A stretch of 64,000 nucleotides of DNA, taken from Squalus acanthias (taxonomy: Eukaryota). The translations under genes and the position numbers were made by a program. The notes beneath the pieces were generated by a model that saw only the letters and a program-made list of their open reading frames with translations, was not told the origin of the DNA and ran no database searches. Below are positions 1-46,124 of this stretch, in pieces. Positions within the stretch are counted from its first letter, which is position 1. Each line of letters begins with the position of its first letter. Where the stretch lies: positions 129,830,001 through 129,894,000 of the forward strand of contig CM059431.1 in assembly GCA_030390025.1 (NCBI GenBank). Reading direction: 5' to 3'.

Positions 1-527
1 TTCACAGTTCGCCGTCCATTGCTGCATCCGGGAGGTAACAGATGCTCCCTACAGAAGGAGAAGGGAGTACATCTCATTCCCCCATGACCAGAGAGAAACA
101 AGATGAACGCTCATGTGGCTTTGCAAGGATAGCGGGCTTCCCCGTGGTTCAGGGCGCCATTGACTGCACCCACGTGGCATTGCGGGCACCTCCTCACAAT
201 GCAGAGGTGTTCCGCAACCGCAAAGGCTACCACTCTCTGAACGTTCAGTTGGTGTGCGACCACAGACAGCGCATCCTCGCCGTCAATACCCGCTATCCTG
301 GCAGCAGCAACGATGCATTCATCCTGCGACAGACTGGTGTCCCAGCACTGTTGCCACCCACCACATGAAGCTCGCGGCTGGCTGCTCAGAGACAAGGGTT
401 ATCCACTCGCCACCTGGCTGATGACACCCCTCCACAACCCCAACACTCCTGCTCAGCATGCATACAATGACAGCCATAGCGCCACCAGGAACCTGATCGA
501 ACACACTATCGGGGTGTTAAAGCAAAG
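1..527 (+). pseudogene. Harbinger DDE transposase fragment (frameshifted, C-terminally truncated)
   Basis: Motifs [40 protein letters not shown], then in another frame DKGYPL…WLMTP and [14 protein letters not shown]. Homology stops abruptly at about 527. Confidence 0.9.
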
Positions 528-2672
528 GCCCAGCTGCAGACTGCACCACCTCAGCATGGGCGGCAGCAGTCTGGGCTGGCTGGGTTACAGGCTGCGACAA
601 GTGCAATGGTGGAGTGGCAGTGGTGGGAGCAGGAATGCTGTCATCCTGAGAGAGGACAGCACCTTCCTGCTTGACCGACACACTGCCACTCCCCCGGGGC
701 AGAACCTCAGCATTCGGAGAAATCTGCTCGAGCACAGATTGCTGGCCTGCTGCGGCACCGTGAGATCCCCGGTGGACTGTGGGCGACCCAGCGACAATGG
801 CAGCAGTCAGCGCTTGCGTGGCATCAATCTGAGACTGCATGAGTGCACTCTGAGATTGCATGCCAGCAACCACCGACTCCATTACAGCACTAAGCCGTTG
901 TGTTGCCTCAACCTGTGCTCTGGGTCCCCACGGTCTTGCTGCGAATTGACCATCCTTCGCAAACTGCCAAGGATGGGCTCGATGGTGTGTGCAGAGATTA
1001 GTGCAAAGTTGGAGGCGGACTCCTCCAAGCTCCTAGCCAGTGCATCATGCTCTCGGGCACCCTTGCCATTGCACCCATGAACTCGGTGTGCATGCCCATC
1101 GCCCGTGTGGTCATCGCCTCCACATCAAGGTCTACGTCTGTGTCCTGTGCAGCAGAACTCACGCGTGAACTCACCCTCGGGGAGATGGCCCCCGAGCTTC
1201 CCTTTCCCCGTGGCGTTGCTGCAGCCCGCTGGGTCCCAGAGCTTCACCCACATCTGACCCATCTACTAGGCTCCTCTCCAGCGACCGCATCACCCCATTA
1301 TCGGACCTAGTGCCTTCGGGAGACACAGGCAGTGTGGCTCTGGCTTGTTCTTCCTCCTCGTCTCCCGCGTCGCTGCCACTGGGAGGCTGAGGGACAGGCT
1401 GGTCATGTGATGGCTGATTATCTGAAAGCATAAAGGCACAAGAGTGGGGTTAAGGTCAGGGGAGGGGGGCAGGAAGGGAGCAAGGAATGGAGACAGTATA
1501 CTTAGATGGAAAGTGGGAAAGGTGTGAGGGGAAAAAAAAGACTTGCATTTATATGGCGCCTTTCTTGACCACTGGACGTCTCAAAGCACTTTACAGCCAA
1601 TGAAGTGCTATTTGGAGTGTAGTCACTGTTGTAATGTGGCAGCCAATTTGCGCACAGCAAGCTCCCACAAACAGCAATGAAATAATGACCAGATAATCTG
1701 TTTTTGTTATGTTGGTTGAGGGATAAATATTGTCCAGGACATCGGGGACAACTGCCCTGCTCTTCTTTGAAATAGCTGCCATGGGATCTTTTACGTCCAC
1801 CTGAAAGAGCAGACGGGGCCTCAGTTTAACATCTCATCCGAAAGACAGCACCTCCGACAACGCAGCACTCCCTCAACACTGCACTGGAGTGTCAGCCTAG
1901 ATTTATGTGCTTAAGTCCCTGGAGTGGGACTTGAACCCACAACCTTCTGACTCAGAGGCGAGTGTGCTACCCACTGAGCCACAGCTGACACAGCTCGAAG
2001 GAAGTGCTATGAGAAAAGAGGGAGAGGTGATGAACATACCGTTGTTGTCCCCAAGGGGGTCGACATCTCCGACGGCCGCAGCACACACAACCTGGGCGGC
2101 AATGATGCGGCCCACTCACTCCTCCAGGTCTGTAAGGGGGTACAGGTCTGCCTCACCTCCTCCAGTGCGTACTTGCTCCCTCCTGTTGTGAGTAAGCTTG
2201 GCCTACAAGAAAAAGGAAAGCGTGTGAGTGAGTGTGCAGCTATGTGTTTGACATATGTGCCTACCATAGTTGAATGGCTGTTAATGTATGCAAGGCGTGA
2301 GATGTGCATTTCACTTTTAGTTGGTGGGCATAGTTGGTGGGTGAGTGTTCAGTATGTGGTGGTTTATACAGTGTGTGCACAGAGTGAGGTTGAGATGTGG
2401 CATGTAGAGGTTTTTGAAGCATCTACTCACCCTGATCCCCAGAGTGAGGTCGTTGAATTTATCCGGCACTGGGTGGGAGTTCTGGGGACCACACTTCTAG
2501 CTGACACGTGCTGGGCGACCTCCCTCCACATCCTCCTAAAGGCCTGTGGCAATGGCCTCCTGCCAGGGTCCGGGAAGAGCACTGCCCGTCGAAGTTCCAT
2601 GGCCGCAACCAGAGCCTCCAATGCCTGGTCGCTGAACCGGCGAGCTCTCTCTCTGGGCCTCTGATCAGCCAC
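517..2672 (-). pseudogene. Harbinger Myb/SANT-like DNA-binding gene, 3 exons (about 2672-2431, 2202-2040, 1421-517)
   Basis: Exon 1 RARRFSDQALEALV…WREVAQHVSARSVVPRTPTQCR (Myb/SANT-like). Exon 2 KLTHNRREQVRTGGG. GT/AG sites visible on the - strand. Frameshifts present. Confidence 0.8.
1533..1991 (-). mobile_element. tRNA-derived SINE, SacSINE1/DeuSINE-like, nested in intron 2 of the Harbinger Myb gene
   Basis: - strand head gtgtcagctgtggctcagtggg…gggttcaagtcccactcc (A and B boxes). L2-like tail …atataaatgcaagtc. Confidence 0.8.
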
Positions 2673-3786
2673 CAGTTGCTTGAATGAAGGCTTGCAGCTC
2701 CTTGCAGGCCCAGTTCACAAGCAGCAATGATCAGAGTGAGGCTGTGCAGCATGATTGAACCTCCCCTTTAAGAACTGGAAGGCGCCAGTCTGTCTGAGGA
2801 CTCTCTAATTGACAGTGCCGGATCTTGATTAGCACTCTGAAGGTAGTGCCCCGCTCTGCGACGTTAGCGCCCTAAGAGAAGTGTGTAGTGCTTGATTTAG
2901 CGCTCCACTTCCCTCTTGGGCCGCTAAAACTCAATTTCGCGTTTGCCGATGCTAATTAGTGCCGGGCGCTAAAGTTGGCACCCAGGCGATGTCAGCGTCC
3001 CAAAATGGTCAATACCGAATTTTTCCCCCAGGGTCTTTTAAATAATCAGAGTCAGCCCCACATCTGTAGCAGCGCAACATTGGCACCTGCTCTGCATCGT
3101 CAGCAGAAACTTGGTGCAGTACCCTGCCGCTCTGAGAGGGGGAGCAAAAGACGGCTCAGGCCGAAGAGGACGAGGTGGAAACCTTTTTCTGGAATCCCTC
3201 GACAATCGATGCCTTGGGCAAAGGTAATCAATCTTTCCAGTAAAACACTGGGGAGAGGAATTTCAGATCAATGTGTCAAGCATTCATTCATTCGTATCCT
3301 ACGGCATAATTTCAAGGTCTAAATGCTTAACTCTAAAGAAAAAGCTTCACAAAGATTAAAGACTTGTGGCATTGTAACTTTAAATTACTGCCTATGATAT
3401 GCCCCAGCATAACACGGGATAAACCATACTTGTAACTATTTTCTTCAAATACAACTAATTAGTAATTTTTTTAAAGTTCATATTTTATACATCTAATTTG
3501 CCCTTCCTGTCTAAATTTCTCACCTCACACGCTATTGAGTTTAGGACAGAACAAGTTACCCATGCTGCTCTTTCACACTTTCCATATGTCCCATCGTAAT
3601 GTCATGTCTTTTGCTTCACACCTCACAACAAGGCTAAGATTGGAAAGCTCACCATATGATGGAAACCTGCATCCCACACAGCAAAGCACATTGGAACACA
3701 AGGATATAAGGATTTTCTTTGTACACTTTTTTTAACCCTCCACTACAAATAGCAAATATTGGAAATTCTCCCATTATATTTACAAT

Positions 3787-6089: not shown

Positions 6090-7300
6090 CATAGAATCAT
6101 GCATAAATTACAACAGGAAACAGGCTGATCAGTCAAGCCAGTCTGTATTGGTGTTTATCATTTACTGACATTGGTGAAAAAAAAAAATTCTCATGTTTTC
6201 TGTTCTAAGACAATTTAATCTGATATCTGTATCTCCTTGTCCTAGACCCCCTCAACCACTGGAAACCATCTATTTCTATCTACTCTGTCCCATCCCTTCA
6301 TAATTTTAAACACCTCTAACAAACTACCCTTTAATATCCTATTTTTTAATGACAGCAGTCCCAATTTTTCAATTGTTTCTTCATATTTGTATTTCCTCAT
6401 ACCAGACAGCACCCGAGTAAATCTGTGCTGTACCCTCTCTATTGCTTCAACATCCTTCCTATAGTGTGCAGTCCAAAACCGCACACAGTAGTCCAACTAT
6501 GGTTTTACTAAGGTTTTATATAGATTCATCATTAGATCCTGACTTTTATAATCTATACTTACTTTAAAACTCAGCATTACATTAACTTTTTTTAATGGCC
6601 ATATCCACTTGAGATGCTGCCTTTAATGTCTTCTGAACCTGAACCCCCAAATCCCTCTGCTCTTCCACATCATCCAGCCTTCCCCCATTTAAAATATCAT
6701 TATTACTTTTATTTTTTTACCAAGTTGTATCACCTCACATTTACTGATGTTGAATTCCATTTGCCATTTTTTGCCCATTTGACCCTCGTCAATATCTTCT
6801 TTTAGCTGCCGTTGGTCCACAGAATTATGTATTATGGGGTAAAAATTAGTTAGCGACCATTTTGTATCGCTAACATCGCCTGCGCCCGGCGAAAAATAGC
6901 GCCGGCGATCGCTTAATTCAGTTTTAGCACCCAGGCGAAAAGTCGTTTGCGTCCCCGGGGGGGCTAACGAGAGGTGCAAATGCACTGAATTTCTAGCCCT
7001 ATGTCTTTGATTTTAGTATTACCTGCAAAGTTGGACACTGCTCCCTCTAGCCCTATTTTAAAAATCATCAATGTACATAATAAAAAGAAGTCATCTCAAA
7101 ACAACCCTGTGGGAAACCACTACTCACTTTCAAACACTCTGAGAAGCTGCCCTTGACTCTCTGTTTCCTCCCTTCTAACCAGTTTTAATTCAAGTTCCTA
7201 CCCTTACCCTAATTTCATACCCCTTAATCTTCCCCGATAGTGTCCTGTATGGTACCTTGTTAAAGTCTTTCTGACGTCCATGCATTTTCCCCATCCACCA
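6090..7300 (-). mobile_element. CR1 LINE 3' fragment, old, with nested MITE
   Basis: YCVRFWTAHYRKDVEAIERVQHRFTR and KWQMEFNISKCEVIQLG in - strand ORFs. Confidence 0.85.
6836..6999. mobile_element. 164-bp Harbinger-type MITE
   Basis: TIRs GGGGTAAAAATTAGT / ACTGAATTTCTAGCCC; 3-bp TSD tat (6833-6835, 7000-7002). Confidence 0.85.
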
Positions 7301-7754
7301 TATCTTTCACTTCCTCAAAGATTTTTGATTGATGATGTTTTGCTACATACAGCTTCTATATATCATATGTCTTATACTTATACGTGGAGTGATATTCTAA
7401 TATATGTGGACCGATTATGTGGTCCCATCACAGTGGTGGTGGAATATCTGCTTCTCGGTACTTGTGCACTGACATGACCTTGCCCAGGTTTGAGGTTAGG
7501 CCATTTAAAGGGATGTGGCTACACAGAGGGGAAAAAATCTTTCCGCCTTTAGAAAAGCTGAAAATAATTTTTTAAATATTTGTCAGCCTTTCTGAATGCT
7601 GTAATGGGGTGACAAAAAAAGGTGGCAGGCTAAATTCAAGTGAAGGCAAACCAAATACTGAGGTATGAAATTATGTCTGTGGGCAAGTGAAAGAAAGGGG
7701 CAGCTCCTGACTCCTATTTGATGGCGAGTGAAGTTGCTGCATGAGATAGGTGTA

Positions 7755-8588
7755 CTCTTCTGGTTAAAACAATAAAACTGTAACTTAACAGAAAACATTA
7801 AAAGAACCGTAACAACTTAAATTAAAATTGTATTCCTCGGCGTGATGATGCACTCCAGTCCCTGCGGTGCCCACCGGTCGTGGAAGGCCTTGAGCGTGCC
7901 GGCGGACACCGCGTGCTCCATTTCCAGGGCCACCTGGGCACGAACGTGGCCGCGGAAGAGAGGCAGGCAGTCGGGCTGAACGTCCCCCTTGACCGCCCAC
8001 TGCCTGGACCAGTTGATGGCCACTTTGGCCAGGCCCAGGAGCAGTCCCACGAGGAATTCCCCCGATCTGCCCGCTCCCCTCCACACCGGGTGACCAAAGA
8101 TCAGGAGCGTGGTACTGAAGTGCAGCCAAAAACCGAGGAGCAGCCCCTTCAAATAATGGAAGAGGGGCTGCAACCTCTCACACTCCATATATACATGGAA
8201 CACGGACTCCTCCAGGTCGCAGTAAAGGCAGGTGGCCTGGGAGTCCGTGAACCTACTTAAAACCATATTGTACAGGACTGCTCCGTGCAACACCCTCCAG
8301 GCCAAGTCCCCAATAGAAAAAGGGAGGACTCCCGCGTAGAGAGCCCTCCATTGGGGACCTCCACCTCCGCCGGACGGCAAGATGCTACGCCAAAGCGTGT
8401 CCGGACGGCAGACGAAGATGGCAAAGTGGAGAGTGTGCAGGAGCAGCCCATACAGGAAACCCATCCGTGCAGAATGAAAAGGCACGGAGGGCATTTCCCA
8501 GAGATGGCTCAAGTTGTGAGGCGCCGGTTCCCGAGAGGGGTTTCGGGGCTGGGCGCCGATGAGAATTCCGTCCGAACATGGGTCAATT
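7755..8588 (-). mobile_element. Tx1/L1-clade LINE 3' fragment, copy A
   Basis: C-terminal ORF2 with zf-RVT-like motif DLAWRVLHGAV…CLYCDLEESVFHVYMECERL; bounded by atgagataggtgta at 7741-7754 and 8589-8602. Confidence 0.85.
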
Positions 8589-8602
8589 ATGAGATAGGTG
8601 TA

Positions 8603-9432
8603 CTCTTCTGGTTGGGTGATTAAACGAATCGTCCGTAACTTAATAAAACATTAAATAAAACTTAACAAATTAAATTAAAATTTAATTGGCCGGGGTGATG
8701 ATGCACTCCAGTCCCCGCGGTGCCCACCGGTCGTGGAAGGCCTCAAGCGTGCCAGCAGACACCGCGTGCTCCATCTCCAAGGCCACCCAGGCGCGAACGT
8801 GGCTGCGGAAGAGAGGCAGGCAATCGGGCCGAACGACCCCCTCGACCGCCCGCTGCCTGGACCAGTTAATGGTTTTTTTGGCCAGGCCCAGGAGCAGTCC
8901 AACGAGGAGGTCCTCCGATCTGCCCGCTCCCCTCCGCACCGGTTGACCAAAGATCAGGAGCGTGGGACTGAAGTGCAGCCAAAAATCGAGGAGCTGCCCC
9001 TTCAGATAATGGAAGAGGGGCTGCAACCTCTCGCATTCCATATAAACGTGGAACACGGACTCCTCCAGGCCGCAGAAAAGGCAGGCGGCCTGGGAGTTCG
9101 TGAACCTATTTAAAAACCATATTGCACGGGACTGCTCCGTCCAGGCCAAGTCCCCAATAGAAAAAGGGAGGACTCCCGCGTAGAGAGCCCTCCATTGGGG
9201 ACCTCCGCCTCCGCTGAACGGCAAGATGGTGCGCCAAGGCGTGTCCGGACGGCAGACGAAGATGGCAAAGTGGAGAGTGTGCAGGAGCAGCCCGTACAGG
9301 AAACCCCTCCGTGCAGAATGAAAAGGCACGGAGGACATTTCCCCGAGTCGGCTCAAGTTGTGAGGCGCCAGTTCCCAAGAAGGTTTCGGGGCTGGGCGCC
9401 GATGAGGAATTTCGTCCGAATGTGGGTCAGTT
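8603..9432 (-). mobile_element. Tx1/L1-clade LINE 3' fragment, copy B
   Basis: Homologous to copy A (CLFCGLEESVFHVYMECERL); bounded by atgagataggtgta at 8589-8602 and 9433-9446. Confidence 0.85.
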
Positions 9433-9683
9433 ATGAGATAGGTGTAAGGAGTGTTTGTTCTGATTGGCACACTAAGGCACGCTTCCCACAAGACAGCACT
9501 GCCTGGCAGGAGGTGGATGACCAGGCTTAATACTGTCTACAGTATTTGCAGGATTTTAGAACAGTTATGAGATGAAATGGCATTCTTTAAGGACCTGATG
9601 CGGAGATGCCGGTGTTGGACTGGGGTGGACAAAATTGAGAGGTCGCACAACACCAGGTTATAGTCCAACAGTTTTATTTGAAA

Positions 9684-9721
9684 TCACAAGCTTTCGGAGT
9701 TACTACTCCTTCGTCGGGTGA
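9684..9721 (-). ncRNA. Minimal hammerhead motif, copy in the inverted arm
   Basis: Exact reverse complement of 11873-11910. Confidence 0.7.
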
Positions 9722-10281
9722 AGTAAAGAGATACAGAATCGCCAAAGCATATATAGATAGAGAACAATGCATGTGTACCTTACAATTGCAGACAACTAAA
9801 TTTAATCATCCTGACTGTTTATCTGCCGAGGTGTGATAAAGTTAATCAGGTCAGCCAGGAAGGTACCACATCAAAGACATAGCAAGATACAACTGAGACA
9901 ATGAGGTGGAGTCGCATGTGGTCTAACGTGTCAAAAGCTGCCGTCTGTATGTAAAACGATTAACTTTAAAATTTTTACTTTTTTACTGGGAATCACATCT
10001 GTGAACAAGCCACCGACGACTCGAGTCCGGATCACGTCATGTATCGTGACATAAACCCAAGATCCCGGTTGAGACCGTCTTCATGAGTGCGGAACTTGGC
10101 TATCAGTTTCTGCTCGATGATTTTGCGTTGTCGTGTTTTCCTAAGGCCGCCTTGGAGAACGCTTACCCGCAGATCCGAGGCTGAATGTCCTTGACTGCTG
10201 AAGTGTTCCCCGACTGGGAGGTAACAATCCTGCCTGGCGATTGTTGCACGGTGCTCGTTCATACGTTGTCTCTGTGTCTGC

Positions 10282-11562
10282 ATGGTCTCGCCGATGTACC
10301 ATGCCGCGATGCATTCTTTCCTGCAACGTATGACCTTCGACAACCATTTTTTTACCCAAACACACGGAACCGTCATGGGGACCAAATTCGCACCCCAATA
10401 CGCCAACATCTTCATGCACAAGTTCGAGCACGACTTCTTCGCTGCACAGGACCTCCAGCCAACGCTGTACACCAGATACATCGACGACATTTTCTTCCTT
10501 TGGACCCATGGCGAAGGATCACTGAAAAGACTACACGATAACATAAACAAGTTCCATCCCACCATCAAACTCACCATGGACTACTCCTCAGAATCGGTTT
10601 CATTCCTGGACACACGAATCTCCATCAAAGACGGACACCTCAGCACTTCACTCTACCGCAAGCCCACGGACAACCTCACGATGCTCCACTTCTCCAGCTT
10701 CCACCCTAACCACGTTAAAGAAGCCATCCCCTATGGACAAGCCCTGCGAATACACAGGATCTGCTCAGACGAGGAGGAACGCGATGGACACCTACGGACG
10801 CTGAAAAACGCCCTCGTAAGAACGGGATATGACGCTCGACTCATCGATCGACAGTTCCGACGGGCCACAGCGAAAAATCGCATAGACCTCCTCAGAAGGC
10901 GAACACGGGACACAACCAACAGGGTACCCTACGTCGTCCAGTACTTCCCCGGAGCGGATAAACTACGCCATGTTCTTCGCAGCCTTCAACATGTCATCGA
11001 TGACGACAAACACCTCGCTAAGGCCATCCCCACGCCTCCACTACTTGCCTTCAAACAGCCGCCTAACCTCAGAAGTACCATCGTTCGCAGCAAATTACCC
11101 AGCTTTCAGGATAACAGCGACCACGACACCACACAACCCTGCCACGGCAAACTCTGCAAGACATGCCAGATCATCAACACAGATACCATCATCACACGTG
11201 AGGACACTACCCACCAGGTACATGGTACATACTCATGTGACTCGGCCAACGTTGTCTACCTCATACGTTGCAGGAAAGAATGCACCGCGGCATGGTACAT
11301 CGGCGAGACCATGCAGACACTGAGACAACGTATGAACGAGCACCGTGCAACAATCGCCAGGCAGGATTGTTACCTCCCAGTCGGGGAACACTTCAGCAGT
11401 CAAGGACATTCAGCCTCGGATCTGCGGGTAAGCGTTCTCCAAGGCGGCCTTAGGAAAACACGACAACACAAAATCATCGAGCAGAAACTGATAGCCAAGT
11501 TCCGCACTCATGAAGACGGTCTCAACCGGGATCTTGGGTTTATGTCACGATACATGACGTGA
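10282..11562 (+). CDS. Penelope-like RT C-terminal half + Cys-rich linker + GIY-YIG endonuclease (426-aa open frame; first ~17 codons come from the inverted arm)
   Basis: GTVMGTKFAPQYANIFM, RYIDDIF (catalytic), SFLDT, LYRKPT; linker CHGKLCKTC; NVVYLIRC…WYIGET…QRMNEH…HF…E…GLN. Confidence 0.9.
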   Translation: MVSPMYHAAMHSFLQRMTFDNHFFTQTHGTVMGTKFAPQYANIFMHKFEHDFFAAQDLQPTLYTRYIDDIFFLWTHGEGSLKRLHDNINKFHPTIKLTMDYSSESVSFLDTRISIKDGHLSTSLYRKPTDNLTMLHFSSFHPNHVKEAIPYGQALRIHRICSDEEERDGHLRTLKNALVRTGYDARLIDRQFRRATAKNRIDLLRRRTRDTTNRVPYVVQYFPGADKLRHVLRSLQHVIDDDKHLAKAIPTPPLLAFKQPPNLRSTIVRSKLPSFQDNSDHDTTQPCHGKLCKTCQIINTDTIITREDTTHQVHGTYSCDSANVVYLIRCRKECTAAWYIGETMQTLRQRMNEHRATIARQDCYLPVGEHFSSQGHSASDLRVSVLQGGLRKTRQHKIIEQKLIAKFRTHEDGLNRDLGFMSRYMT

Positions 11563-11872
11563 TCCGGACTCGAGTCGTCGGTGGCTTGTTCACAGATGTG
11601 ATTCCCAGTAAAAAAGTAAAAATTTTAAAGTTAATCGTTTTACATACAGACGGCAGCTTTTGACACGTTAGACCACATGCGACTCCACCTCATTGTCTCA
11701 GTTGTATCTTGCTATGTCTTTGATGTGGTACCTTCCTGGCTGACCTGATTAACTTTATCACACCTCGGCAGATAAACAGTCAGGATGATTAAATTTAGTT
11801 GTCTGCAATTGTAAGGTACACATGCATTGTTCTCTATCTATATATGCTTTGGCGATTCTGTATCTCTTTACT

Positions 11873-11910
11873 TCACCCGACGAAGGAGTAGTAACTCCGA
11901 AAGCTTGTGA
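11873..11910 (+). ncRNA. Minimal type I hammerhead ribozyme motif in the PLE 3' repeat (core variant CCGACGA)
   Basis: tcac-CCGACGA-a-ggag-tagtaa-ctcc-GAAA-gctt-gtga. Stem I TCAC/GTGA, stem II GGAG/CTCC, palindromic stem III AGCT. Confidence 0.7.
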
Positions 11911-12179
11911 TTACAAATAAAACTGTTGGACTATAACCTGGTGTTGTGCGACCTCTCATACTTTAAGGAACCAGGCAAGGTTAAGTTACCTAACGGTACC
12001 ATGTACCAGGTAGATGGCTCAAGATTGTATGCCACAAAATGTTGCATGTCAACCTGTTCTACATTTACTACCAAGCCTTCTTACCCTAAAAGCTGAAAAC
12101 ATTGTCACACTAACATCTTCCAGGGGTTTCACACACCAAACCATTGCAACACAAACTTGGTATTTACTGACACCCAGAA

Positions 12180-12660
12180 TGGGCAGCCAGTGCATCTCCA
12201 GCAATGGCTTCTCTTCCTACCTTCACACCATCAACACTTTGACTAATTTAGTCCAAGAGTCCCCCAGGATCTACCCTTGGCGACATAATTTGCAGGCATA
12301 AGGCAAGCTTCCATACGTATAGTTCTGACACTTGCTTCTACCATTCCACCACTTCCAGTGATCCAATGACAACCGCCATGCGGTCAGATTACCTGTCTGA
12401 TATCAAGTCATGGTTATGTCAAAACTTACTCCAGTTGAACATTGAGAAAACTGAAACCATTGTTTTTGGTCCTCACAATGAACTGCACTCCCTCACCACC
12501 AATACTATTCTCCTCTCCAGCCACTTGGTCAGGCTTAACCAGACCATGTGGAACCCCATAGTCCTGTTGGACCCAGAGCTGAGCTTCAAAGCCTATATCT
12601 TGTTTCATTCTCTAATGCCCTCCTTGCTGGTCTCCCATCCTCTGCCATCCATAAATTCCA
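12180..12660 (+). mobile_element. Old L2 LINE fragment
   Basis: LSDIKSWLCQNLLQLNIEKTETIVFGP. Confidence 0.75.
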
Positions 12661-13039
12661 ATATGTCCACTTTAGTGACACACCATTTGTTTGAGATTTT
12701 TGATTTCCCTTAAAGGAGAATGAAATATGCAGCTGAGCACAACATAAGAGCTTTTAAACTGCTGAGCTTTGCTAAACAGATACTCTGCCAGAATTTAGCT
12801 GTTCCATCCTTGAATTCCCCAGCTCAACAGGTGAGCAAATTTGTACTCGGCCATTTTAATGCCCACCTGCAGAAAATTCCCACATCTCTGAAAGCTGATT
12901 AACAATTTTTAACAAGCAACTGTGGATTTTTCTCACACACACAAAAAATCACTCCCAGGTTTAGTTTATCTCCCCAGTTTTAATACTTTCTCTGTTATTG
13001 CTGGCATTAAACAACAGCAGAAAACATCCCTAGCTTATA

Positions 13040-13800
13040 TATTTAAAAATCAGAGTACGAACATTTGTCCAGTTTTTGCTGTACTGATAATGGCACGGCT
13101 GTCAGCACTCACCGTTATTACTGGGTAAAACTGACAGCAACTTCTGGGGTCTGCACGTGCTCGGTTAAACGCGGAAATCTGGAAGTTGCTGTCAGAAATA
13201 CCCTGCTCCTTCACAGGGTGCGCTGTTGCAGTCTTTGCCGATGGAATCTGCACAGAAATCACTGTTAAGACGTGAACTTAAATGAATTACCCACTATTTT
13301 CGCACAAAAAGCCGATGAAATACTTAAACCTTGTTCAGTCAGGAGTAACTGAGTTTTTAATGGTGTAGTAAGTCATAATTACTGCTGAACAACTTCTCTG
13401 GCCCTGAAAAATTAATTTTATAAGTGTGGAGTATCATTCCCTCAGAAGAAAATTAATGTTGCAGATTTACATTTTTTTAAGTTTCTGTGTTTTTCTATTT
13501 AAGTTTCTCCCTTAATCCCATGTGTATGTCCCAATCTTCATTTTGCTTTCTGTACAATGATTTAAATGTGATTTATATTTCCTGTTTTTTACTTCCTGCT
13601 TTGCTGTCCGTGAGGATTCTTCAATCTGATTGGTTGATCAGCCTGCCTTTTGTCCTGTTCGCAAGACATCACAGATCCCCTGTAGAGTGTGCTGAATTCA
13701 AACTGATGTCGGAGAAGGAGCCTGCACTCAGGAGTTCGCTAAAACTTTGTGGGCAGCTTTTTTCGAGGTGAATGATGCCACTGATCACAAAATCCGGGCC
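13040..13800. mobile_element. Old Harbinger-like non-autonomous element
   Basis: Right terminus cacaaaatccgggcc matches the terminus type at 3787. Left end degenerate. Confidence 0.5.
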
Positions 13801-14279
13801 GTAGTGTCCCTAGTTTGTGCGATGAGTGCACAGCAAGATAAAATTAAATCTGAATACAGGAGAAATGCAGTTTATTAAAAACATTTAACATCAAAAGTCT
13901 GATAATCATAGGGCAGCATTTTCAAATTAACGTGAAGAGTTTGTAGTTTCCTTTATGATTTTTTTAATGATTCTGTTCTACGTTTGTAGTTTACTTCAGT
14001 ACTCCTGATTATTTCACTTTTGAATGTTCAGTGAATATAAATGTATCTCTGTTTCTGGTATGTCTATTGCGTATGCAATGCCTTTTTATGAATTTCAATC
14101 ACATTTTCAAGAAAAAAGTTAAATTATTCGAACAAAGCGATGTTCACAAATGGAGCCGATGTACTTTTGTTGCAAGTTTCAACGTGGCCAAACTATTTAG
14201 TGTACCCCCCTCTTATCTAACGCTAATGGTTATACTGTATTCTTGTTTTAAAGTGCATTTGTATTTCATATTGCTAAGT

Positions 14280-14814
14280 ATTGAACGAGCACTCTGCTTG
14301 CATAACCTGGAGCTCCTGCTGCAGCCAGTGGGTGGCTCTGATGTGATGTGGTTTGCTGGTGGAAGTAGCGCGCTCGCTCGCGAGACACGGGCACGCCGAT
14401 GTGGAATTGTGTCCCGGAGCGCGAGTGCTGTCCGGGTGGAACTCCAGGCTCTGCTCAGCCCAGCCTAGCCAGGGGCACTTCAGCCTGAGGTGTGCGAGCC
14501 TGCACACGCTTGCTGCTCCTCCTGCTTTTGTGTTTGACCCCACGCTGTCCATTTTAAGTTCTTTTTTCCTCAACACACTCGCTTCCAGTCGGCTTTGTGA
14601 TATTTTAACTGTGTTAAAATTAAAAGCAGCAGCCGGGAAAGAGGAGCGTTTCGGTGGGAAACTTTGCTGGCTATGCCACTTGAAGCTGCCTCGGGTTTAC
14701 CTTTTGGCTGCTTTAGTTTTGAGGAGGGAAGTCAAGTCCGGAGAAAATTTGGTGGCCAAAAGTTTGGCGAAGTTTTAAGTTCGGTTTGATTTTATTGGCG
14801 TTGCTTTGGCGAAG
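14280..14814 (+). promoter_or_regulatory. CpG-enriched putative promoter / 5' UTR of GPC5
   Basis: Non-repeat, locally GC/CpG-rich stretch (gcgcgctcgctcgcgagacacgggcacgccg) directly upstream of the ATG. TSS not determinable. Confidence 0.6.
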
Positions 14815-14977
14815 ATGGGGTTGAAGATGAAGCGCGCATCTTGTGCGAGTGGGGCTGTGTTGCTTTTCCTGGTGGGGGTGAGTTTGCAGTCTGAGCCCAA
14901 CTGTGAGGAGGTGAAGAAAGTTTTCCAGCTGCGTCAAATCGGAGCCTCCAAGTGGCTTCCAGAGACCCCCAGACCAG
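14815..14977 (+). CDS. GPC5: Glypican-5-type gene, coding exon 1 (signal peptide + start of Cys-rich domain)
   Basis: ATG in strong Kozak context (aagATGg) at 14815. Translates MGLKMKRASCASGAVLLFLVGVSLQSEPNCEEVKKVFQLRQIGASKWLPETPRPG, resembling the GPC5 N-terminus (hydrophobic signal, CEEV-K-F motif). Ends at donor CAG|GTGAG after 163 nt (phase 1), in frame with exon 2. Confidence 0.92.
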
Positions 14978-15625
14978 GTGAGCACCAACGTTACTCTACA
15001 TTCCATAAAATCCGCGCACTATCCAAACTGTCTGCAAATGCGTATACATTTTAGGCACTGTCTCTAGGTTAAAGGTAATATCCATAATTTATGTACACTG
15101 CATAATTTTATAAGCACCGTCCCTATAACAATGCTACACGTTATAGGTACTCCCCGTGTCGTATCCATACATTACACTGAGTGCATAATATAGACACTGC
15201 CCAATTAGTAGTGAAGAAACATTTAAAACTCCTACACTAAGACCTTCTGGCAAAACAAATCCGAAAGGCAAGGAATCCTGTGATGGGGATCGCCTCATGC
15301 CAGGACAGTGGCTTTTTTTTTGTGAGGTGGGGGTTAAAATATAGGAGGTGATTTCCTCCCCGCTTCTCCTGCTGTGCTGCCGTAAATTTGACGGAAACCC
15401 CTTTTACGTGCGTAAGCAGCGTTTCTGCCAAAGTTACATCAGTGCAGTGGGAGCAAGTGGGCTTCATTACTATTTCCATTGATTTGCATATAAAAAATTA
15501 ATTTCATTTAATCAGGAAACCATACTAAAGGAATCAATTGATAAGTAGTTCCAAGGTATTGACTGTAGAGGCAGCCATAGGAATTTCACTTTCCTTTTAT
15601 ATGATTTTGCACTGCAGTGGCATCG

Positions 15626-16840
15626 TTCCATTGATGTGTACATGAACTTTCAAAAGGCGTTTGATAAAGTACCACTTAATAGACTTGTTAGTAAAATTGA
15701 AGGCCATAGGATTAAAGAGGCAGTTGGCTATGTGAATACAAAATTAGCCAAGGGACAGAAAGCAGAGTAGTGGTGAATGGCTGTTTTTCCAGATTGGAGT
15801 GAAATGTGCAGTGGTGTCCCCGAGGGGTCAGTGTTGGAACCACTGCTCTTTTTGATATATATTAATGTCCTGGACCTGGGTATATAGGGCATAATTTCAA
15901 AGTTTGCAGATGACACGAAAATCAGAAATGTAGTAAACAGTGAGGAGGATAGTAACAGACTCCAGGAGGTCATAGACAGACAAGTGAAATGGTTGGACAC
16001 ATGGTAGATAAAATTTAACGCAGAGAAGTGTGAAGTGATTCATTTTGGTCGGAAGAATGAGGAGAGGCAATATGAACTAAATGGTACAATTTTAAAGATG
16101 GTGCAGGAGAAGTGAGACCGGGGGGTGTATGTACACAAGTCTTTGAAGGTGGCAGGACAAGTTGAAAAGGCTGTGTTTAAAAAAAAAAAGCGTATGGGAT
16201 CCTTGGCTTTATAAATAGAAATGAGAAGTCGCACAACACCAGGTTATAGTCCAACAGATTTATTTAAAATTACAAACTTTCGGAGCTGTCGCCCCTTCTT
16301 CAGGTAGGGTAGCTGTGAGAGAATCTCCCAGAATTCACAATATAAACACAGAAAAAATGGAAAAATAAAGGCATAAATAGAGGCATAGGGTACAAAAGGA
16401 CTGAAGTAATCCTTTATAAATTACTGGTTAGGCCCCAACTGGAGTATTGTGGCCAATTCTGGGCACCACTTTTTAGAATGGATGTCAAGGCTTTAGAGAG
16501 GGTGCAGAGGAGATTGACAAGAATGGTTCCAGGGATGAAAGACTTTAGTTGGAGAGACTGGAGACTCTGTGGTTGTTCTCCTTGGAACAGAGAAGGTTAA
16601 GGGGAGATTTGATAGAGGTGTTTAAAATCATGAAGGGTTTTGATAGAGTAAATAAGGAGAAACTATTTCCAGTAGCAGAAGGGTCGGTAAGCAAAGGGCA
16701 CAGATTTAAGGTAATTGGCAAAAGAACCAGAGGTGATAGGAATTAAAAAATAAATTGGATAGCTCTTTCAAAGAGCTGGCACCGGCATGATGGGCTGAAT
16801 GGCGGCCTCCTGTACTGTATCTTTCCATGATTCTATGACT
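15626..16840 (+). mobile_element. CR1 LINE 3' fragment with nested PLE mini-insertion
   Basis: gtggtgtccccgaggggtcagtg…aagtttgcagatgacacg (VP-GSV, KFADDT), LFSLEQRRLRGDLIEVFKIMKG, tail atgattctatga. Confidence 0.9.
16220..16372 (-). mobile_element. PLE 3'-end mini-insertion with degenerate hammerhead (16270-16307)
   Basis: tgagaagtcgcacaacaccaggttatagtccaacag matches 9636 onward. 9-bp TSD ataaataga (16211-16219, 16373-16381). Confidence 0.85.
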
Positions 16841-17814
16841 TCTGCAGATTGTAACTTGAAAATGTGTTTTGAAGTGTCTTGGGATGGGGGCAACGCTGGG
16901 AAGACAGTATTTGTTGTCCATCCATCTGTGGGCATTAAGAGTCAACTGTGTGGTGTGGGACTGTAATCACATGTAGGCCAGACTTGGGAGAGGAGGCAGG
17001 TTCCCTTTGAAGGACATGAATGACACTCTGGCAGCTTTCATGTTAATTTTTCAGTTTCTTCGCTCAACTTCTGCGTTGCTAGTCCAGTACCATAACTATT
17101 AGGCTTCTGTACCCTGCAATTGCCAGTCATACCATTAGTATTTTTAAACAGTGTACCAATACAGATTTATAGGTGCATTGGCAAACAACTCACTTCTGGC
17201 ACATTAGAGAAAAATATATAGACATCTTCCAATTATTTTGGTATATAAGAAACATACCACATAGTATATTACATATAAGTTCTTTACTATGAAAAGCAAA
17301 GAACTGTATGCATATTCCGCCTTGCATTGTTGACATCTTAGGTAATGGCATATCAGATGTTCAAATGCATAGAGACTTTGTGGAATATGACTAGGACAAA
17401 TTAACAAAATTATGACAGTGAACAGCCCAGGTGTGGGAGACGGTAATTTTGTGATATCTTGAAAATAACTTCATAAATGTCATTCGGATTTCTCAAAGCA
17501 ATTTTAAAAGGTAATGAAAATTAAAGCTGGTTTGAAAAATTATTCAATTCACTTGTGCACTCTATGCAAGTGCTGAATTGGAGGGAATTGCTGATCACTT
17601 GAAAAGATAGATTTACGTTTAGGGTGTTTGGAGAAATATCAACTACATTTTTTCCTGCTGTGAAGTTCCTTTTTTATTTCTGACTTTCAGCACTTGGAGA
17701 TTTTTTAAAATCTCATTTGTTCTGTCCACACTTCCATTGAGTTATTTTTGTAACAACAAAAAACAAATTGATATTTCCAGTCATAAAAGTACAAAATAAA
17801 AATGGTTTATGTAG

Positions 17815-18456
17815 GCAGCTAAGAAATTCAGTTTTAGCGCTCCAAGAGGGAAGTGGAGCGCTAAATCAAGCGCTAACCACTTCTCTTTGGGCGCTAAAGT
17901 CCGAGAGCGGGGCGGTAGCGGCAGAGCGCGAAACAATTTCGAGCGCATTGCAAACGACACTCTTTCATCACAGAGGCTGCTTCCCTTGCTTAAAGGGAAG
18001 GGCCAATGATGCTGCACAAGCTAGTTGTCGTCCGTTCTGTTTTACAGCCCCAAACACTCGCAAAGTGGAGGGCTTGGACATCTCGCACCAATGAAAAAGT
18101 AAAAAAATTTGCGCAGGCACCAGACTGGTGCAAATAATAAAGGTTGCGCTAGCTGAAAAGCATTCCTTTAATTACCGCACCTGAAGCGGCCAGCCAAGTT
18201 CACAATGCCTCCTCTTGCTGGCTTTGTCGGTGTGAGGCGATAAAGCAGGAGCGCGAATGAATTTTCCATCCGGGGCGATAACTGGCCGCTGCGCACTTTA
18301 TGACATCACGATTTGCAAGGCGCTAGAGGCCTAGGCGCTTAGAGTAAACTGACACTGAAGTTCGCGGGTGTCGTTGCATTCACTGCGCCCGGGCGCGAAC
18401 CCCTTAGCGCCCCATTAGCGCCCCCACCAGGCGCTAACATACCGAATTTCTAGCCC
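17815..18456. mobile_element. Harbinger MITE related to the element at 1-3029
   Basis: Right TIR accgaatttctagccc. About 17823-17875 is nearly identical to the reverse complement of about 2888-2938. Confidence 0.8.
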
Positions 18457-24238: not shown

Positions 24239-24905
24239 GGGCTAAAAATTGAGTAGTGCCCCGGAAAAATTAGCACCCCCCGCATTGGAACTTGAGTGTT
24301 TGCGCCCCGAGAGGGAAGTGGGGCGCTACTGGAAGCGCCCCTCATCCCTCTTGGGGTGCTGCGAGTCAATATCGCGGTGCTACGTGCTGCAGTGCCGTGG
24401 TATTGCAGGCCTTCCTCCCCTTCTTAAAGGGGAGGGGCCTTGCGCAGCGCAACTTGGGGCCCAGCTGGGCCCCCGGAGTTTGGGAGTGCCGGCAAAAGAG
24501 TCCGGCACGCAAGAGAAGTGCCAGGCTCTTGGAGCGCAGCCGGCACTCCGCGGGATGGGCCGTTCAGGAGGCCGGGGACTGGAGCGCAGGCAGGTGCTGG
24601 CAGGTGGCCAGCATCAAAAATGGCCGCCCCGCACCTCGCCTTTGAATTGTGCCTCCTCAGCCGCAGGTAGGCCTCACTGATATCCGGCGGTAAGTCGGGG
24701 CGCTCCCGAAGATTGCAGCCGGGGCGCTGCGCACGGCGATGATGTCATCGCCGGCGGCGCGGCGCAGCACGCTACCGGTTACCACTGCTGCTAACCTCCC
24801 GCTGAATTTTGCGGGAGGCGTGGGTGGCACCACGCCCGGGTGCTAGTTGCTTTGCGCCCTGTTAGGGCGCTAACAGGATGCGCAAAGCAACCCAATTTTT
24901 CCCCC
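24239..24905. mobile_element. 667-bp Harbinger MITE (CpG-rich)
   Basis: TIRs GGGCTAAAAATTGAGTAG / CAACCCAATTTTTCCCCC; TSD ttg (24236-24238, 24906-24908). Confidence 0.9.
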
Positions 24906-27900: not shown

Positions 27901-27954
27901 TGTATAAAATGTTTTGCTATTTCCTTTATTTGCCCTATTTCCTCAAACCTTCTA

Positions 27955-28309
27955 CAGGAAACTCTTTATTAACCGGCACCGGCGTGGTGCCGGTTAATCA
28001 AAAAGTCCGGATAACAGAGAGTTATATCTCCCAACGTACGAGAACCCCGTATACATTGACATGCGCCTGCATTCGGAGCTCCGTCTCCCCGGGGACCGCC
28101 AGCTGACCATCTGTCGTGTCCGCTGCCTACCTGGGCTGCACATTCTCCTCCCAATCTACACGCTCCGATACAAGGCAAACGCCTCGGGGTTTTTAAAAAA
28201 ATTACTTTTAAACGAGAGATGAAGGAAAACCCCGGTTACCTACTCAAGAATTTTGCCGGTTAAGAGAGATTTCCGGATATTTGGGTGCCGGTTAATGAAG
28301 AGTTTCCTG
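27955..28309. mobile_element. Tc1-mariner (pogo/Tigger-like) MITE, 355 bp
   Basis: TIR CAGGAAACTCTTTATTAACCGGCACC / GGTGCCGGTTAATGAAGAGTTTCCTG; TA TSD. Confidence 0.9.
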
Positions 28310-29284
28310 TATTAGGCTTTCTAATAATTTCTGCTTCCTTTACATTTTTCTATATTTGGCTCGATTTTCCTTTTATATTATTAGCCTGAATTTATTAAAT
28401 GTCTTTGTAAACTCTCATTTTAATAATCTACTCATCCAAGGAACTCCTGCTTTTACTCTACCACTTTGACTTGTGGGAATATATCTAAAATATCTAATTT
28501 CTGTTAGGCAAGGATATTAAGGGTTACGGAACCAAGATGGGTAAATGGAGTTGAGATACAGGTCAGCCATGATCTAATTGAATGGCGGAATAGGCTTGAG
28601 GGGCTGATGTAGTCTGTATGAGCTCATGTTTATGAAGAGTGGAGGATGGGAAATTGGTTCAGAGAGCATTGGAATACTCGAGTCTGGAGTTGACATAGGA
28701 ATTGATGAGGGTTTCAGCAGCAGATGGGCTGAGGTGGGGCAGAGGCGGGTGATGTTACGAAGAGGGAACCACCTAATTTCTTGATCTAGTTGCAGTTGCC
28801 TGATTCTGAGCTCTGTCTACCCACTTCTCACCCATCCTGTTTTCTTCTTTCAGGAATAGTGGTCTAAACTTGTGCCTAGTGCTCGGGCCTATTCACCGAA
28901 CTAACTTCCTTCCACTAGATTGACTTTGGGGCCATCTTCTGCACACCTCCCTCCCACAGTTTCATATTTTCAGTAGTGGTGGTTAGGCCTTGAGCCTGCC
29001 ACCTCAGACTTTCTGACTACCCAATCCTCTGCATACCTGAACCTCTCCTTTTCCCTCGGAGTTCTTAGTGTCTTATTTTCTTTCTGGCTAAACCAGCACT
29101 GAACGCTGTACAAACTATACCATATGTATGGTGTTAACTTTTCAAGTGCCTCAGTAAACTAACAGACTTATTTCATGATAGTGCTCTTAAACACGTTTTC
29201 TAAATAAACTTAATTTTTATATTAGTGTGGGTTATGCTCTGAAACTGTCATGGGACTGGTTTATATGGTGATGGACATGGTAAG

Positions 29285-29885: not shown

Positions 29886-30536
29886 GGGAGAGAAATTCCC
29901 CATGAGGGCCATTTGGGGCATAAACATTTGTTACATTCTCTCTTTTTGCTCCAAGAAGAAAGTGGAGCGCTAAATCAAGTGGTCCACTTGCCTCTTGGAG
30001 TGCAAGAGGCGGGGAATGTCCTGATCTGTGGCGATGTGCTCACGTTGCAGGGGCTCTTCCCTGTATTAAAGGGAAGGGAGGGCCCCATGCTGCGTGCTCT
30101 GCAGGTTTCATTGTAGATTTCTGGGCCACCGGGGAGCGGGAGTGCCGCGCAATCAGCCTGGCACTCCAGCAGAGTGCTGGGCTGAGCGATGGCGGCATGG
30201 ACGCCGCGACCGGTAGCCGAAAATACATTTTTTAAAAATTGGCTTTTTTTTGGCCGGCTGCCCACTGTTTGCGACCCCTGCAGCAGTCGGTAACATTGCC
30301 CGGTGCTGCTGTGGGGTACGAGTGTGAATTTTTTTCCTGGGACGCTGCGCCCGGAGATGATGTCATGATCTCCAGGCACAGAAGATCGGGGTGATACCCG
30401 GTAGCGCCGCTGCTAACCTCCTGGGCATTTTGCTGGAGGCGCGGTTATTGCCTCAGTGTGTGGGGGCGGGGGTGAAAAACCATTTGCGCCCCGTTAGCAC
30501 CTCCCACTGGAGGCGCAAATGAGGGGAATTTTGCCC
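29886..30536. mobile_element. Harbinger MITE
   Basis: Ends gggagagaaattcccc / ggggaattttgccc; shares agtggagcgctaaatcaag with the MITE at 17815 and the element at 1-3029. Confidence 0.75.
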
Positions 30537-37467: not shown

Positions 37468-37808
37468 TAAACATAGAAACATAGAATCTAGGAGCAGGAG
37501 TAGGCCATTCGGCCCGTCGAGCCTGTTCCACCATTCAATACGATCATGGCTGATCATCCAAATCCAGTACCCTGTCCCTGCTTTAATCCCCACAATACAC
37601 ACTACCCCCGTAACCCCACGTATTTAATTCCCCCTAACATATCCCATCCCCCCACATATTTAAACTCCCCCTAACACTAAGGGTCAATTTATCATAGCCA
37701 AATCAACCTAACCCGCACATTTTTGGACTGTGGGAGGAAACCGGAGCACCCGGAGGAAACCCACGCAGACACGGGGAGAATGTGCAAACTCCACACAGAC
37801 AGTCACCC
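37468..37808 (-). mobile_element. 5'-truncated HE1/V-SINE-like SINE with CR1-type tail
   Basis: Core tgtgggaggaaaccggagcacccggaggaaacccacgcagacacggggagaatgtgcaaactccacacagacag, identical to the copy at about 40727-40800. Confidence 0.85.
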
Positions 37809-38330
37809 AGTTAGGTAGGGAGTTCTAGAACTTAGGAACAGCGATATATTTTCAAGTCAGGATGGTGTGTGACTTGGAGGGGAACTTGGAGGTGGGGTGT
37901 TCCCATGTGCCTGCTACCCTTGTCCTTTTAGATTGTAGAGGTCGCGGGTTTGGGAGGTGATGTCAAAGAAGCCTTGGCAAGTTGTTGCACTGCATCTTGA
38001 AGATGATACACATTGCAGCCATGGTGTGCCGGTGGTGGAGGGAGTGAATGTTTAAGGTAGTGGATGGGGTGCCGATCAAGCAGACTGCTTTGTCCTGGAT
38101 GGTGTCGAGCTTCATGAGTGTTGTTGGAGCTGCACTCATCTAGGCAAGTGGAGTGAATTCCATCACACTCCTGACTTGTGCTTTGGGGAGTTAGAGGTGA
38201 GTCACTCACTGCAAAATGCCCAGCCTCTGACCTGCTCTTAAAAGCCACAGTATTTATGTAGTTGGTCCAGTTAAGTTTCTTGTCAATGGTGACCCCCAGA
38301 ATGTTGATGGTGGGGGAATCAATGTTCGTA

Positions 38331-38694
38331 CAGGAAACTCTTTATTAACCGGCACCGATGGGACCGGCGTGGTGCCGGTTAATCAAAAAGTCCGGATAAC
38401 GGAGAGTTATATCTCCCAACGTACGAGAGCCCCGTACACATTGACATGCGCCTGCATTCGGAGCTCCGTCTCCCCGGGGACCGCCAGCTGACCATCTGTC
38501 GTGTCCGCTGCCTACCCGGGCTGCACATTCCCCTCCCAATCTACACGCTCTGATACAAGGCAAACGCCTCGGGGTTTTTTTAAAAGTTAATTTTAAGCGA
38601 GAGATGAAGGAAAACCCCGGTTACCTACTCAAGAATTTTGCCGGTTAAGAGAGATTTCCGGATATTTGGGTGCCGGTTAATAAAGAGTTTCCTG
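38331..38694. mobile_element. pogo/Tigger-like MITE, 364 bp
   Basis: Perfect 26-bp TIR CAGGAAACTCTTTATTAACCGGCACC; TA TSD; near-identical to 27955-28309. Confidence 0.92.
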
Positions 38695-40567: not shown

Positions 40568-40878
40568 ATCACAGAATCCCACAATGCAGATAGAGGCCAT
40601 TTCGGCCCATCGAGCCTGCACCGACACATATCCCACCCTATCCCCGTAACCCCACGTATTTAATCCCCCTAACACTAAGGGTCAATTTATCATCGCCAAA
40701 TCAACCTAACCCGCACATCTTTGGACTGTGGGAGGAAACCGGAGCACCCGGAGGAAACCCACGCAGACACGGGGAGAATGTGCAAACTCCACACAGACAG
40801 TCACCCGTGGCCGGATTCGAACCCGGGTCCCTGGCGCTGTGAGGCAACAGTGCTAACCACGATGCCACCGTGCTGCCC
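40568..40878 (-). mobile_element. Full-length HE1/V-SINE-like tRNA SINE
   Basis: - strand head gggcagcacggtggcatcgtggttagcactg…ccgggttcgaatccgg (A and B boxes), V-SINE-like core, CR1-like tail. Confidence 0.88.
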
Positions 40879-46072: not shown

Positions 46073-46124
46073 TATTAAAAATATTGTTCCCATTTCTTTT
46101 TATAAAAAAAAGAAAAATCATGTA

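What the first reader, a model, noticed from the sequence alone, without database searches (positions are those of the whole stretch)
7741..9446. Head-to-tail Tx1-type dimer: three copies of one 14-bp target, identical ends, yet diverged bodies
Seen: ATGAGATAGGTGTA occurs at 7741, 8589 and 9433, separating units of 834 and 830 bp. Both units start at the same 5' point (aa[c/t]tgaccca…ttcggacg) and end in aaccagaagag without poly(A). They differ by roughly 10% in a ~190-nt stretch I compared, and their 3' UTRs differ more, while the 14-mers are identical. Established: many Tx1 families are target-specific (U2, tRNA arrays, 5S, microsatellites), but I do not recognise this 14-mer as such a target. 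Inference: either a non-autonomous Tx1 derivative with a fixed 5' end that inserted twice into a regenerated, possibly undescribed target, or an old tandem duplication.
Basis: partly seen in the sequence, partly recalled or inferred. Interest (0 to 1): 0.7.

Follow-up and report, generated by a model that had tools for sequence, protein, structure and literature searches.

The report
Chimeric tandem pair of Tx1 fragments
Two old, dead tail-end copies of a very common Tx1-type jumping gene lie head to tail at one single-copy spot, most likely because a second copy landed beside the first and finished its front end by copying its neighbour, which is a known side route of such elements and not a new targeted family.

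Summary
In detail: three identical 14-mers (7741, 8589, 9433) separate 834- and 830-bp 3' fragments of a Tx1-clade LINE (45% identical to the Xenopus Tx1 protein end). Contigs from 4 public runs show a very abundant family whose copies run past the shared 5' point, so it is a truncation, not a fixed end. The laid left flank is single-copy; one more distant organism's contig stops exactly at the 14-mer, as an empty site would, so the 14-mer is most likely an ordinary target-site duplication. The bodies differ by 61 of 736 sites in a neutral pattern, which makes identical 14-mers unsurprising (P 0.13-0.34). The last 76 nt differ far more (20 of 74), like two tail lineages, while both units share a breakpoint and a derived Pro-to-His change near the 5' end. 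Best reading (0.5): a second retrotransposition at the regenerated site supplied a new tail and completed its 5' end by copying the resident copy through its duplication. Main rival (0.28): recombination between the duplications plus later tail conversion. No non-autonomous family or new multicopy target is supported. The middle junction was not confirmed by independent reads.

The parts
7741..7754 (-). Downstream (3') copy of the 14-bp target-site duplication; host sequence
   Evidence: in run X11 a 1316-nt contig aligns 7265-7754, stops at the last base and has 201 further letters (table 8; letters not shown)
7755..8588 (-). Unit A: 5'-truncated Tx1-clade LINE 3' end (end of ORF2 with zinc-binding region, stop at 7817-7819, short AT-rich 3' UTR); probable resident copy
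   Evidence: zf-RVT E 1.2e-5, below curated cutoff; 45% identity to Xenopus Tx1 protein residues 1060-1291; junction with left flank also in runs X1, X16, X17
7755..7841 (-). A-type tail (last codons and 3' UTR, ending in the family's 11-nt terminus)
   Evidence: 20 of 74 sites differ from B in 7766-7841, 13 transversions; depth at 7765 is 61-107x single-copy in X1, X16, X17 and 0 in X11
8579..8579 (-). Derived base shared with B (9423): Pro to His near the common 5' breakpoint
   Evidence: A and B read His; three loose-end consensuses (45 contigs) read the other base; relatives P0001, P0013, P0018 keep Pro
8589..8602 (-). Middle copy of the 14-mer, at the tandem junction
   Evidence: not seen bridged in the 32 contig pieces listed
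8603..9432 (-). Unit B: second 5'-truncated Tx1 3' end, same 5' breakpoint, majority-type tail, 10-nt deletion and in-frame stop; probable chimeric second insertion
   Evidence: B-tail depth 4670-11115x single-copy in X1, X16, X17 and 42x in X11
9433..9446 (-). Upstream (5') copy of the 14-bp target-site duplication

Best explanation
Step 1 (shown, apart from order): a Tx1-clade LINE was reverse-transcribed at a single-copy site, stopped after about 830 nt and left a 14-bp target-site duplication (flank-T-A-T-flank). Step 2 (inferred): the upstream T, which restores the original nick context, was cut again by a family member of another tail lineage. Its cDNA began with the new tail, then paired with the near-identical resident copy lying just downstream and copied it to its 5' end and through T (SDSA-like templated completion); annealing at T gave flank-T-B-T-A-T-flank. 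This gives one 5' breakpoint, a shared derived base near it, three Ts, and two different tails in one event. Step 3 (shown): both copies then decayed neutrally. The switch point lies somewhere between 7842 and 8579 and is not located. Both copies are dead; no function is implied.
For: Same 5' breakpoint although the family runs on upstream (X17 loose end at 8563, 34 contigs; X16 at 8560 and 8577, 7 and 4 contigs). Shared Pro-to-His base at 8579/9423. Body differences look post-insertional: 61 of 736 sites, 48 transitions, 25 at CpG, codon positions 18/19/20; synonymous share 0.35 against 0.31 expected under neutrality (p 0.57), omega 0.3 rejected (p 7e-5). Tail differs far more: 20 of 74 sites, p 8e-6; transversions p 4e-8; p 6e-4 and 2e-7 with the more gap-tolerant alignment. 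In the last codons the Pro and Asn kept by close relatives are identical in A and B while the residues between them differ. Both tail types reach the terminus at 61-144x single-copy depth in 3 of 4 runs. Precedent: 22 L1 templated insertions copying DNA next to the site (bioRxiv 2024.08.27.596794, passage); chimeric L1 with new 3' end and copied resident 5' part (PMC8087252, passages); double insertion with a junction duplication (bioRxiv 158386, passages).
Against: The final sequence is also produced by duplication plus tail conversion; nothing here separates the two. Needs a second cut at one base of a single-copy site, and target preference of this family was not shown. The templated insertions cited are mostly under 250 bp and somatic. 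The shared-derived evidence is one base, and loose ends are biased towards contigs unlike the reference; 0 of 9 A-private sites are shared with B, so any copying was early or short. Simple-count pN/pS is 0.60, so slight lineage divergence in the body is not excluded. Summed contig depth is not a copy number, and AT-rich tails align poorly.
Confidence: 0.5

Rival explanations
1. One insertion was duplicated early by unequal exchange or slippage between its two 14-bp duplications, and the last 76-90 nt of one copy were later replaced by gene conversion (or a homology-resolved second priming at the 3' T) from another tail lineage.
For: Explains same breakpoint, shared His, neutral body and T-unit-T-unit-T exactly. 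Unequal crossover between TSDs is proposed for LINE-1-captured genes in poxvirus (PMC9578705, passages); exact removal of elements is described as very rare but real (PMC5737362, passage).
Against: Needs two rare events, one across only 14 bp of homology; the converted tract must end within 11 nt of the element end.
Confidence: 0.28
2. A non-autonomous Tx1 derivative of fixed length inserted twice, independently, into a preferred target.
For: Two tail lineages; 0 of 9 A-private sites shared with B; many Tx1 families prefer targets (PMC4494074, passages and section 15).
Against: The units are plain ORF2 3' ends; other copies continue upstream at this point and no place where many molecules begin or end was reported (tables 6, 7; contigs are weak for ends); depth falls towards the 5' end; left flank single-copy in 4 of 4 runs; body shows no subfamily-type synonymous excess. 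Only 24 of 3207 loose-end rows were shown, so a small fixed-end subgroup is not excluded.
Confidence: 0.08
3. Simple old tandem duplication through the TSDs; the tails differ only because AT-rich sequence mutates and misaligns faster.
For: Body pattern; fewest events.
Against: 6 of the tail differences sit in 12 nt of GC-rich coding sequence (7830-7841); transversion excess p 2e-7 to 4e-8; both tail types have multi-copy depth.
Confidence: 0.07
4. A read-through transcript of the first copy carrying upstream flank was re-inserted at its own site, or the dimer is an assembly error.
For: Would also give one breakpoint; middle junction not seen in the pieces listed.
Against: Does not explain the different tails; 8-9% divergence is too high for two alleles joined by mistake (closest run differs by 8 letters over 7250-7773).
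Confidence: 0.07

Closest known systems
Tx1-clade LINEs (Xenopus Tx1L; Keno, Kibi, Koshi, crocodilian Tx1-Mar; as described in PMC4494074)
   Same: ORF2 C-terminus 45% identical to the Xenopus Tx1 149-kDa protein; a 64%-identical relative carries RT and zf-RVT and is 41% identical to it over 99% of its length, against 26% to a fish L1 ORF2; 5' truncation; target duplication.
   Different: No known target class here: no U2, tRNA, 5S, microsatellite or repeated flank. No RT tree could be made from these fragments.
Double-insertion tandem dimers of non-LTR elements (jockey, DMRT1B, R1; bioRxiv 158386)
   Same: Head-to-tail copies with the target duplication at the junction.
   Different: There the two 5' truncations usually differ (6 of 10 mapped jockey dimers by more than 500 nt); here they are the same to the base.
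L1 templated or chimeric insertions by SDSA-like template switching (bioRxiv 2024.08.27.596794; PMC8087252)
   Same: New 3' end from an RNA, 5' part copied from nearby or homologous genomic DNA, with duplication.
   Different: Described for human L1, somatic or de novo, mostly under 250 bp of template; here an old fixed Tx1 locus, and the mechanism is inferred.
Penelope-tail-targeting Tx1 families noted elsewhere in this genome (AI notes e1-7852016, e1-7851855, unchecked)
   Same: Tx1 clade, head-to-tail stacks.
   Different: This 14-mer has no match in the window's Penelope-like element beyond chance (best 9 of 14; 60 of 60 random 14-mers reach 9 or more); these copies are old and truncated.

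Membership tests
Tx1-clade LINE | ORF2 similarity to Tx1L closer than to L1 | tested here: met
   45% over 236 aa to Xenopus Tx1; relative P0001 41% to Tx1 against 26% to Polypterus LORF2
Tx1-clade LINE | Placement by RT-domain phylogeny; APE endonuclease | not testable with these tools
   The units lack RT and endonuclease; no full-length copy of this family was retrieved
Tx1-clade LINE | 5' truncation with target-site duplication | tested here: met
   Family continues upstream of 8588; X11 contig stops at 7754; empty-site letters not shown
Target-specific Tx1 family | Target is a multicopy gene, repeat or transposon | tested here: not met
Target-specific Tx1 family | Other copies share the 3' flank motif | tested here: inconclusive
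   One joint (X1, 8093 to 8599) keeps the 4 bases next to the 3' end; 15 of 420 joints shown
Non-autonomous fixed-length Tx1 derivative | Copies share one 5' end | tested here: not met
   45 contigs in 3 loose-end rows run on into family sequence; table 6 empty. Contigs are weak evidence on ends
Non-autonomous fixed-length Tx1 derivative | Own head or promoter sequence, or internal deletion | tested here: not met
   Units start directly inside ORF2
Double-insertion dimer | Target duplication at the tandem junction | tested here: met
Double-insertion dimer | Two independent source molecules | tested here: inconclusive
   Tails point to two lineages; breakpoint, shared His and neutral body point to one template
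SDSA-like templated (chimeric) LINE insertion | New 3' end joined to sequence copied from adjacent DNA, with a locatable switch point | tested here: inconclusive
   Anatomy fits; switch point not located and later conversion not excluded

The most novel reading that the evidence does not exclude
This Tx1 family has a short sequence preference (beginning TACA next to its 3' end), re-cuts its own target duplications, and often finishes the second insertion by copying the neighbour, so that the genome holds many same-breakpoint, mixed-tail dimers and arrays: a germline fossil record of templated 5' joining in a LINE. The hints are two further tail-to-interior joints at 13x and 37x single-copy depth (X1 8093 to 8599; X17 7930 to 8642), whose intervening letters were not shown.
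Probability: 0.15. Interest if true: 0.55.

Novelty: new member of a known kind. Interest (0 to 1): 0.25.

Why it matters
As it stands it is one dead locus in a family with thousands of copies, and it matters little. It is a tidy natural example of how a LINE dimer with one breakpoint and two tails can arise, and such TSD-separated dimers are the substrate for satellite arrays (bioRxiv 158386). If a genome-wide count showed many such dimers, it would let one measure how often 5' joining uses a neighbouring copy as template in a germline, and would reveal a target motif for this Tx1 family.

Tried and rejected
No whole genome is held, so copies could not be collected or put in a tree. Protein-based scans of viral, genome and metagenome contigs found 0 confirmed relatives among 14, 84, 338, 124 and 259 pattern hits. 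DNA pattern scans gave 5 viral loci (not read, taken as chance 17-mers), 1 metagenome locus and 1 viral locus, both read and unrelated to Tx1. Phage collection: no match. Rfam and ARAGORN: nothing; the joined empty site itself was compared only with the window, not with Rfam or a repeat library. Tandem Repeats Finder 7000-12500: 0 rows (period limit 500). Tail folding: z -1.37 and -0.45, no structure claimed. NCBIfam: 0 of 2 proteins. Microhomology as the cause of a recurrent truncation: the family reads TCCG upstream of the breakpoint and the 14-mer ends TCAT, so no junction microhomology; a gapped 5-of-7 likeness is within chance (my estimate, no call). Order from CpG decay (16 in A, 9 in B): p 0.23, not informative. 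Earlier-findings searches by sequence, near and relatives gave nothing. Paper searches showed no paper on this family's target or on same-breakpoint Tx1 dimers; Repbase and subscription journals were not searchable, and PMC1199538 was not held.

Full report
Observation. The 14-mer lies at 7741, 8589 and 9433 and nowhere else in the window with up to two mismatches. It separates units of 834 bp (A, 7755-8588) and 830 bp (B, 8603-9432) that differ at 77 of 820 aligned sites. Read on the minus strand the order is flank, T, B, T, A, T, flank; both units begin at the same base and end in the same 11 nt without poly(A). Identity between the three sites stops at 14 nt on the flank sides. No other copy of the unit is in the window.

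What the units are. Each is the 3' end of a LINE ORF2 plus a short AT-rich UTR. A's peptide has a zf-RVT match below the curated cutoff (E 1.2e-5), is 64% identical to an unnamed 622-aa RT protein and 45% identical over 236 aa to the Xenopus Tx1 149-kDa protein. That relative is 41% identical to Tx1 over 99% of its length and 26% to a fish L1 ORF2. Two hits are whale-shark proteins, so the host is probably a cartilaginous fish (inference). Both copies are dead: frameshifts near the 5' ends, a 10-nt deletion and an in-frame stop in B.

Other copies. I laid 4 of 21 public runs, each of a different coded organism, on 7250-8690, that is the left flank, A, the middle T and B's tail (tables truncated: 40 of 505 difference rows, 15 of 420 joints, 24 of 3207 loose ends, 32 of 48781 pieces shown). 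7813 to 17174 contigs per run lie on the stretch, so the family is very abundant. Three loose-end rows (34, 7 and 4 contigs) run past the shared 5' point into sequence that continues the reading frame seen in relatives, and no place where many molecules begin or end was reported. The shared start is therefore a truncation inside ORF2. Contigs are weak evidence on ends, so a small fixed-end subgroup is not excluded. The terminal 11 nt are a family end: depth at 7765 and 8611 is 61-144 times the flank depth in X1, X16 and X17, and 0 in X11; summed depth is not a copy number.

The target. The flank next to the site (7691-7739) is at 1.0-1.15 times single-copy depth in 4 of 4 runs. Rfam and ARAGORN find nothing. 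The 14-mer is not in the neighbouring Penelope-like element beyond chance, so this is not the Penelope-targeting Tx1 family of earlier AI notes on this genome. Flank contigs of X1, X16 and X17 run through the 14-mer into A by 19, 67 and 25 letters; only X16 meets the tool's 31-letter rule for bridging. The X11 contig aligns 7265-7754, stops on the last base of the 14-mer and has 201 more letters that were not shown; I read this as the empty site. Flank differences are 8, 37, 33 and 52 letters over about 500-570 nt (roughly 1.5, 6.5, 6 and 11%; denominators estimated by me). The first insertion thus falls between the X11 split and the X16/X17 split.

Identical ends, diverged bodies. This is not a paradox. 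At the observed divergence three 14-mers stay identical with P 0.13-0.34, and with the two 11-nt ends 0.04-0.19; five identical runs of 25 nt or more occur inside the units. The body (7842-8588) differs at 61 of 736 sites: 48 transitions, 25 at CpG, codon positions 18/19/20. The synonymous share is 0.35 against 0.31 expected without selection (p 0.57); omega 0.3 is rejected (p 7e-5), omega 0.5 weakly (p 0.03); the simple-count pN/pS is 0.60. The bodies were near-identical at the start and decayed in place. Non-CpG divergence (36 of 711, 5%) is of the same order as the X16/X17 flank distance.

One template at the front. Both units carry the same base at 8579/9423, giving His where the three loose-end consensuses and relatives P0001, P0013 and P0018 have Pro. 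It is one base, and loose ends favour contigs unlike the reference. Against long shared history: of 15 listed difference rows inside A, 9 have A differing from most contigs, and B has the family base in 9 of 9; I dropped the other 6, where the other letter dominates mainly in X11. So any copying took place in roughly the first quarter of A's age (95% bound 28%) or covered only the 5' part.

Two sources at the back. The last 76 nt before the common terminus differ at 20 of 74 sites, 13 of them transversions (p 8e-6 and 4e-8 against the body; permutation p 0.001), and still p 6e-4 and 2e-7 with a more gap-tolerant alignment. Six differences lie in 12 nt of coding sequence, yet the Pro and Asn kept by close relatives are the same in A and B. 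Contigs lie on A's tail (177-396 times flank depth at 7789) and far more on B's (4670-11115 times) in three runs. This points to two tail lineages; poor alignment of AT-rich tails and forced placement of contigs on A are caveats.

Mechanism. One event explains all of this: a second target-primed insertion at the upstream T, with a new tail from another lineage's RNA, whose cDNA paired with the resident copy and copied it through its 5' end and T. This step is inferred. Precedents, read as passages only: 22 templated L1 insertions, typically under 250 bp and within 15 bp of the site, ascribed to an SDSA-like switch (bioRxiv 2024.08.27.596794); a chimeric L1 with a new 3' end and a copied resident 5' part (PMC8087252); double insertion leaving the duplication at the junction, with differing truncations in 6 of 10 jockey dimers (bioRxiv 158386). 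The main rival is unequal exchange between the two Ts followed by tail conversion; crossover between TSDs is proposed in PMC9578705 (passages) and exact removal is called very rare in PMC5737362 (passage). The sequence alone cannot separate the two. I give 0.5 and 0.28; a fixed-length non-autonomous family 0.08, plain duplication 0.07, re-insertion or assembly error 0.07.

Comparison and novelty. It works like a double-insertion dimer finished by templated joining. It is a Tx1-clade fragment by protein similarity, without an RT tree. It fails the tests for a multicopy target and for a fixed 5' end. Target preference in Tx1 is well known (PMC4494074, passages and section 15; PMC4640811 and PMC3747384, passages; PMC2718515, passages on 14-bp duplications and 5' junctions of R1). 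Searches (listings) showed no account of this family's target or of same-breakpoint Tx1 dimers, but Repbase and subscription journals were not searched and no supplements were read. The one lead to something wider is two further tail-to-interior joints at 13 and 37 times flank depth, one keeping the four bases next to the 3' end; their intervening letters are unknown. Verdict: a real feature, new member of a known kind, interest 0.25.

Noticed in passing
window 9594-11960: Young Penelope-like element: RT match in 10225-11559, GIY-YIG match (E 1.6e-4), 698-nt inverted arms 99% complementary (9636-10333 and 11261-11958), 9-bp direct repeat at 9585 and 11961. Older fragments at about 16217 and 54474-54750.
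   Followed up: partly
run X1 joint 8093 to 8599 and run X17 joint 7930 to 8642: Tail-to-interior joints of this Tx1 family at 13x and 37x flank depth, suggesting other tandem pairs or small arrays with other 5' points; a 9-letter loose end at 8093 in X1 may belong to the first.
   Followed up: no
window 241-1080: DDE_Tnp_4 (Harbinger/PIF-type, family name recalled) transposase fragment, E 2.8e-9.
   Followed up: no
window 27943-28348, 38319-38733, 46104-46588: Three copies of a 350-470-bp element with terminal inverted repeats (MITE-like); two are 96% identical over 300 nt.
   Followed up: no
window 6835-6928, 2743-3030, 17823-18018, 24288-24360, 29932-30004: A second, internally palindromic short repeat family.
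   Followed up: no
window 8620-8634: B's tail holds a CpG-rich 9-nt palindrome where loose-end consensuses of other copies read an A-rich stretch; origin unexplained.
   Followed up: no
window 37666-37808 and 40664-40806: 143-nt direct repeat, 99% identical, 2998 nt apart.
   Followed up: no
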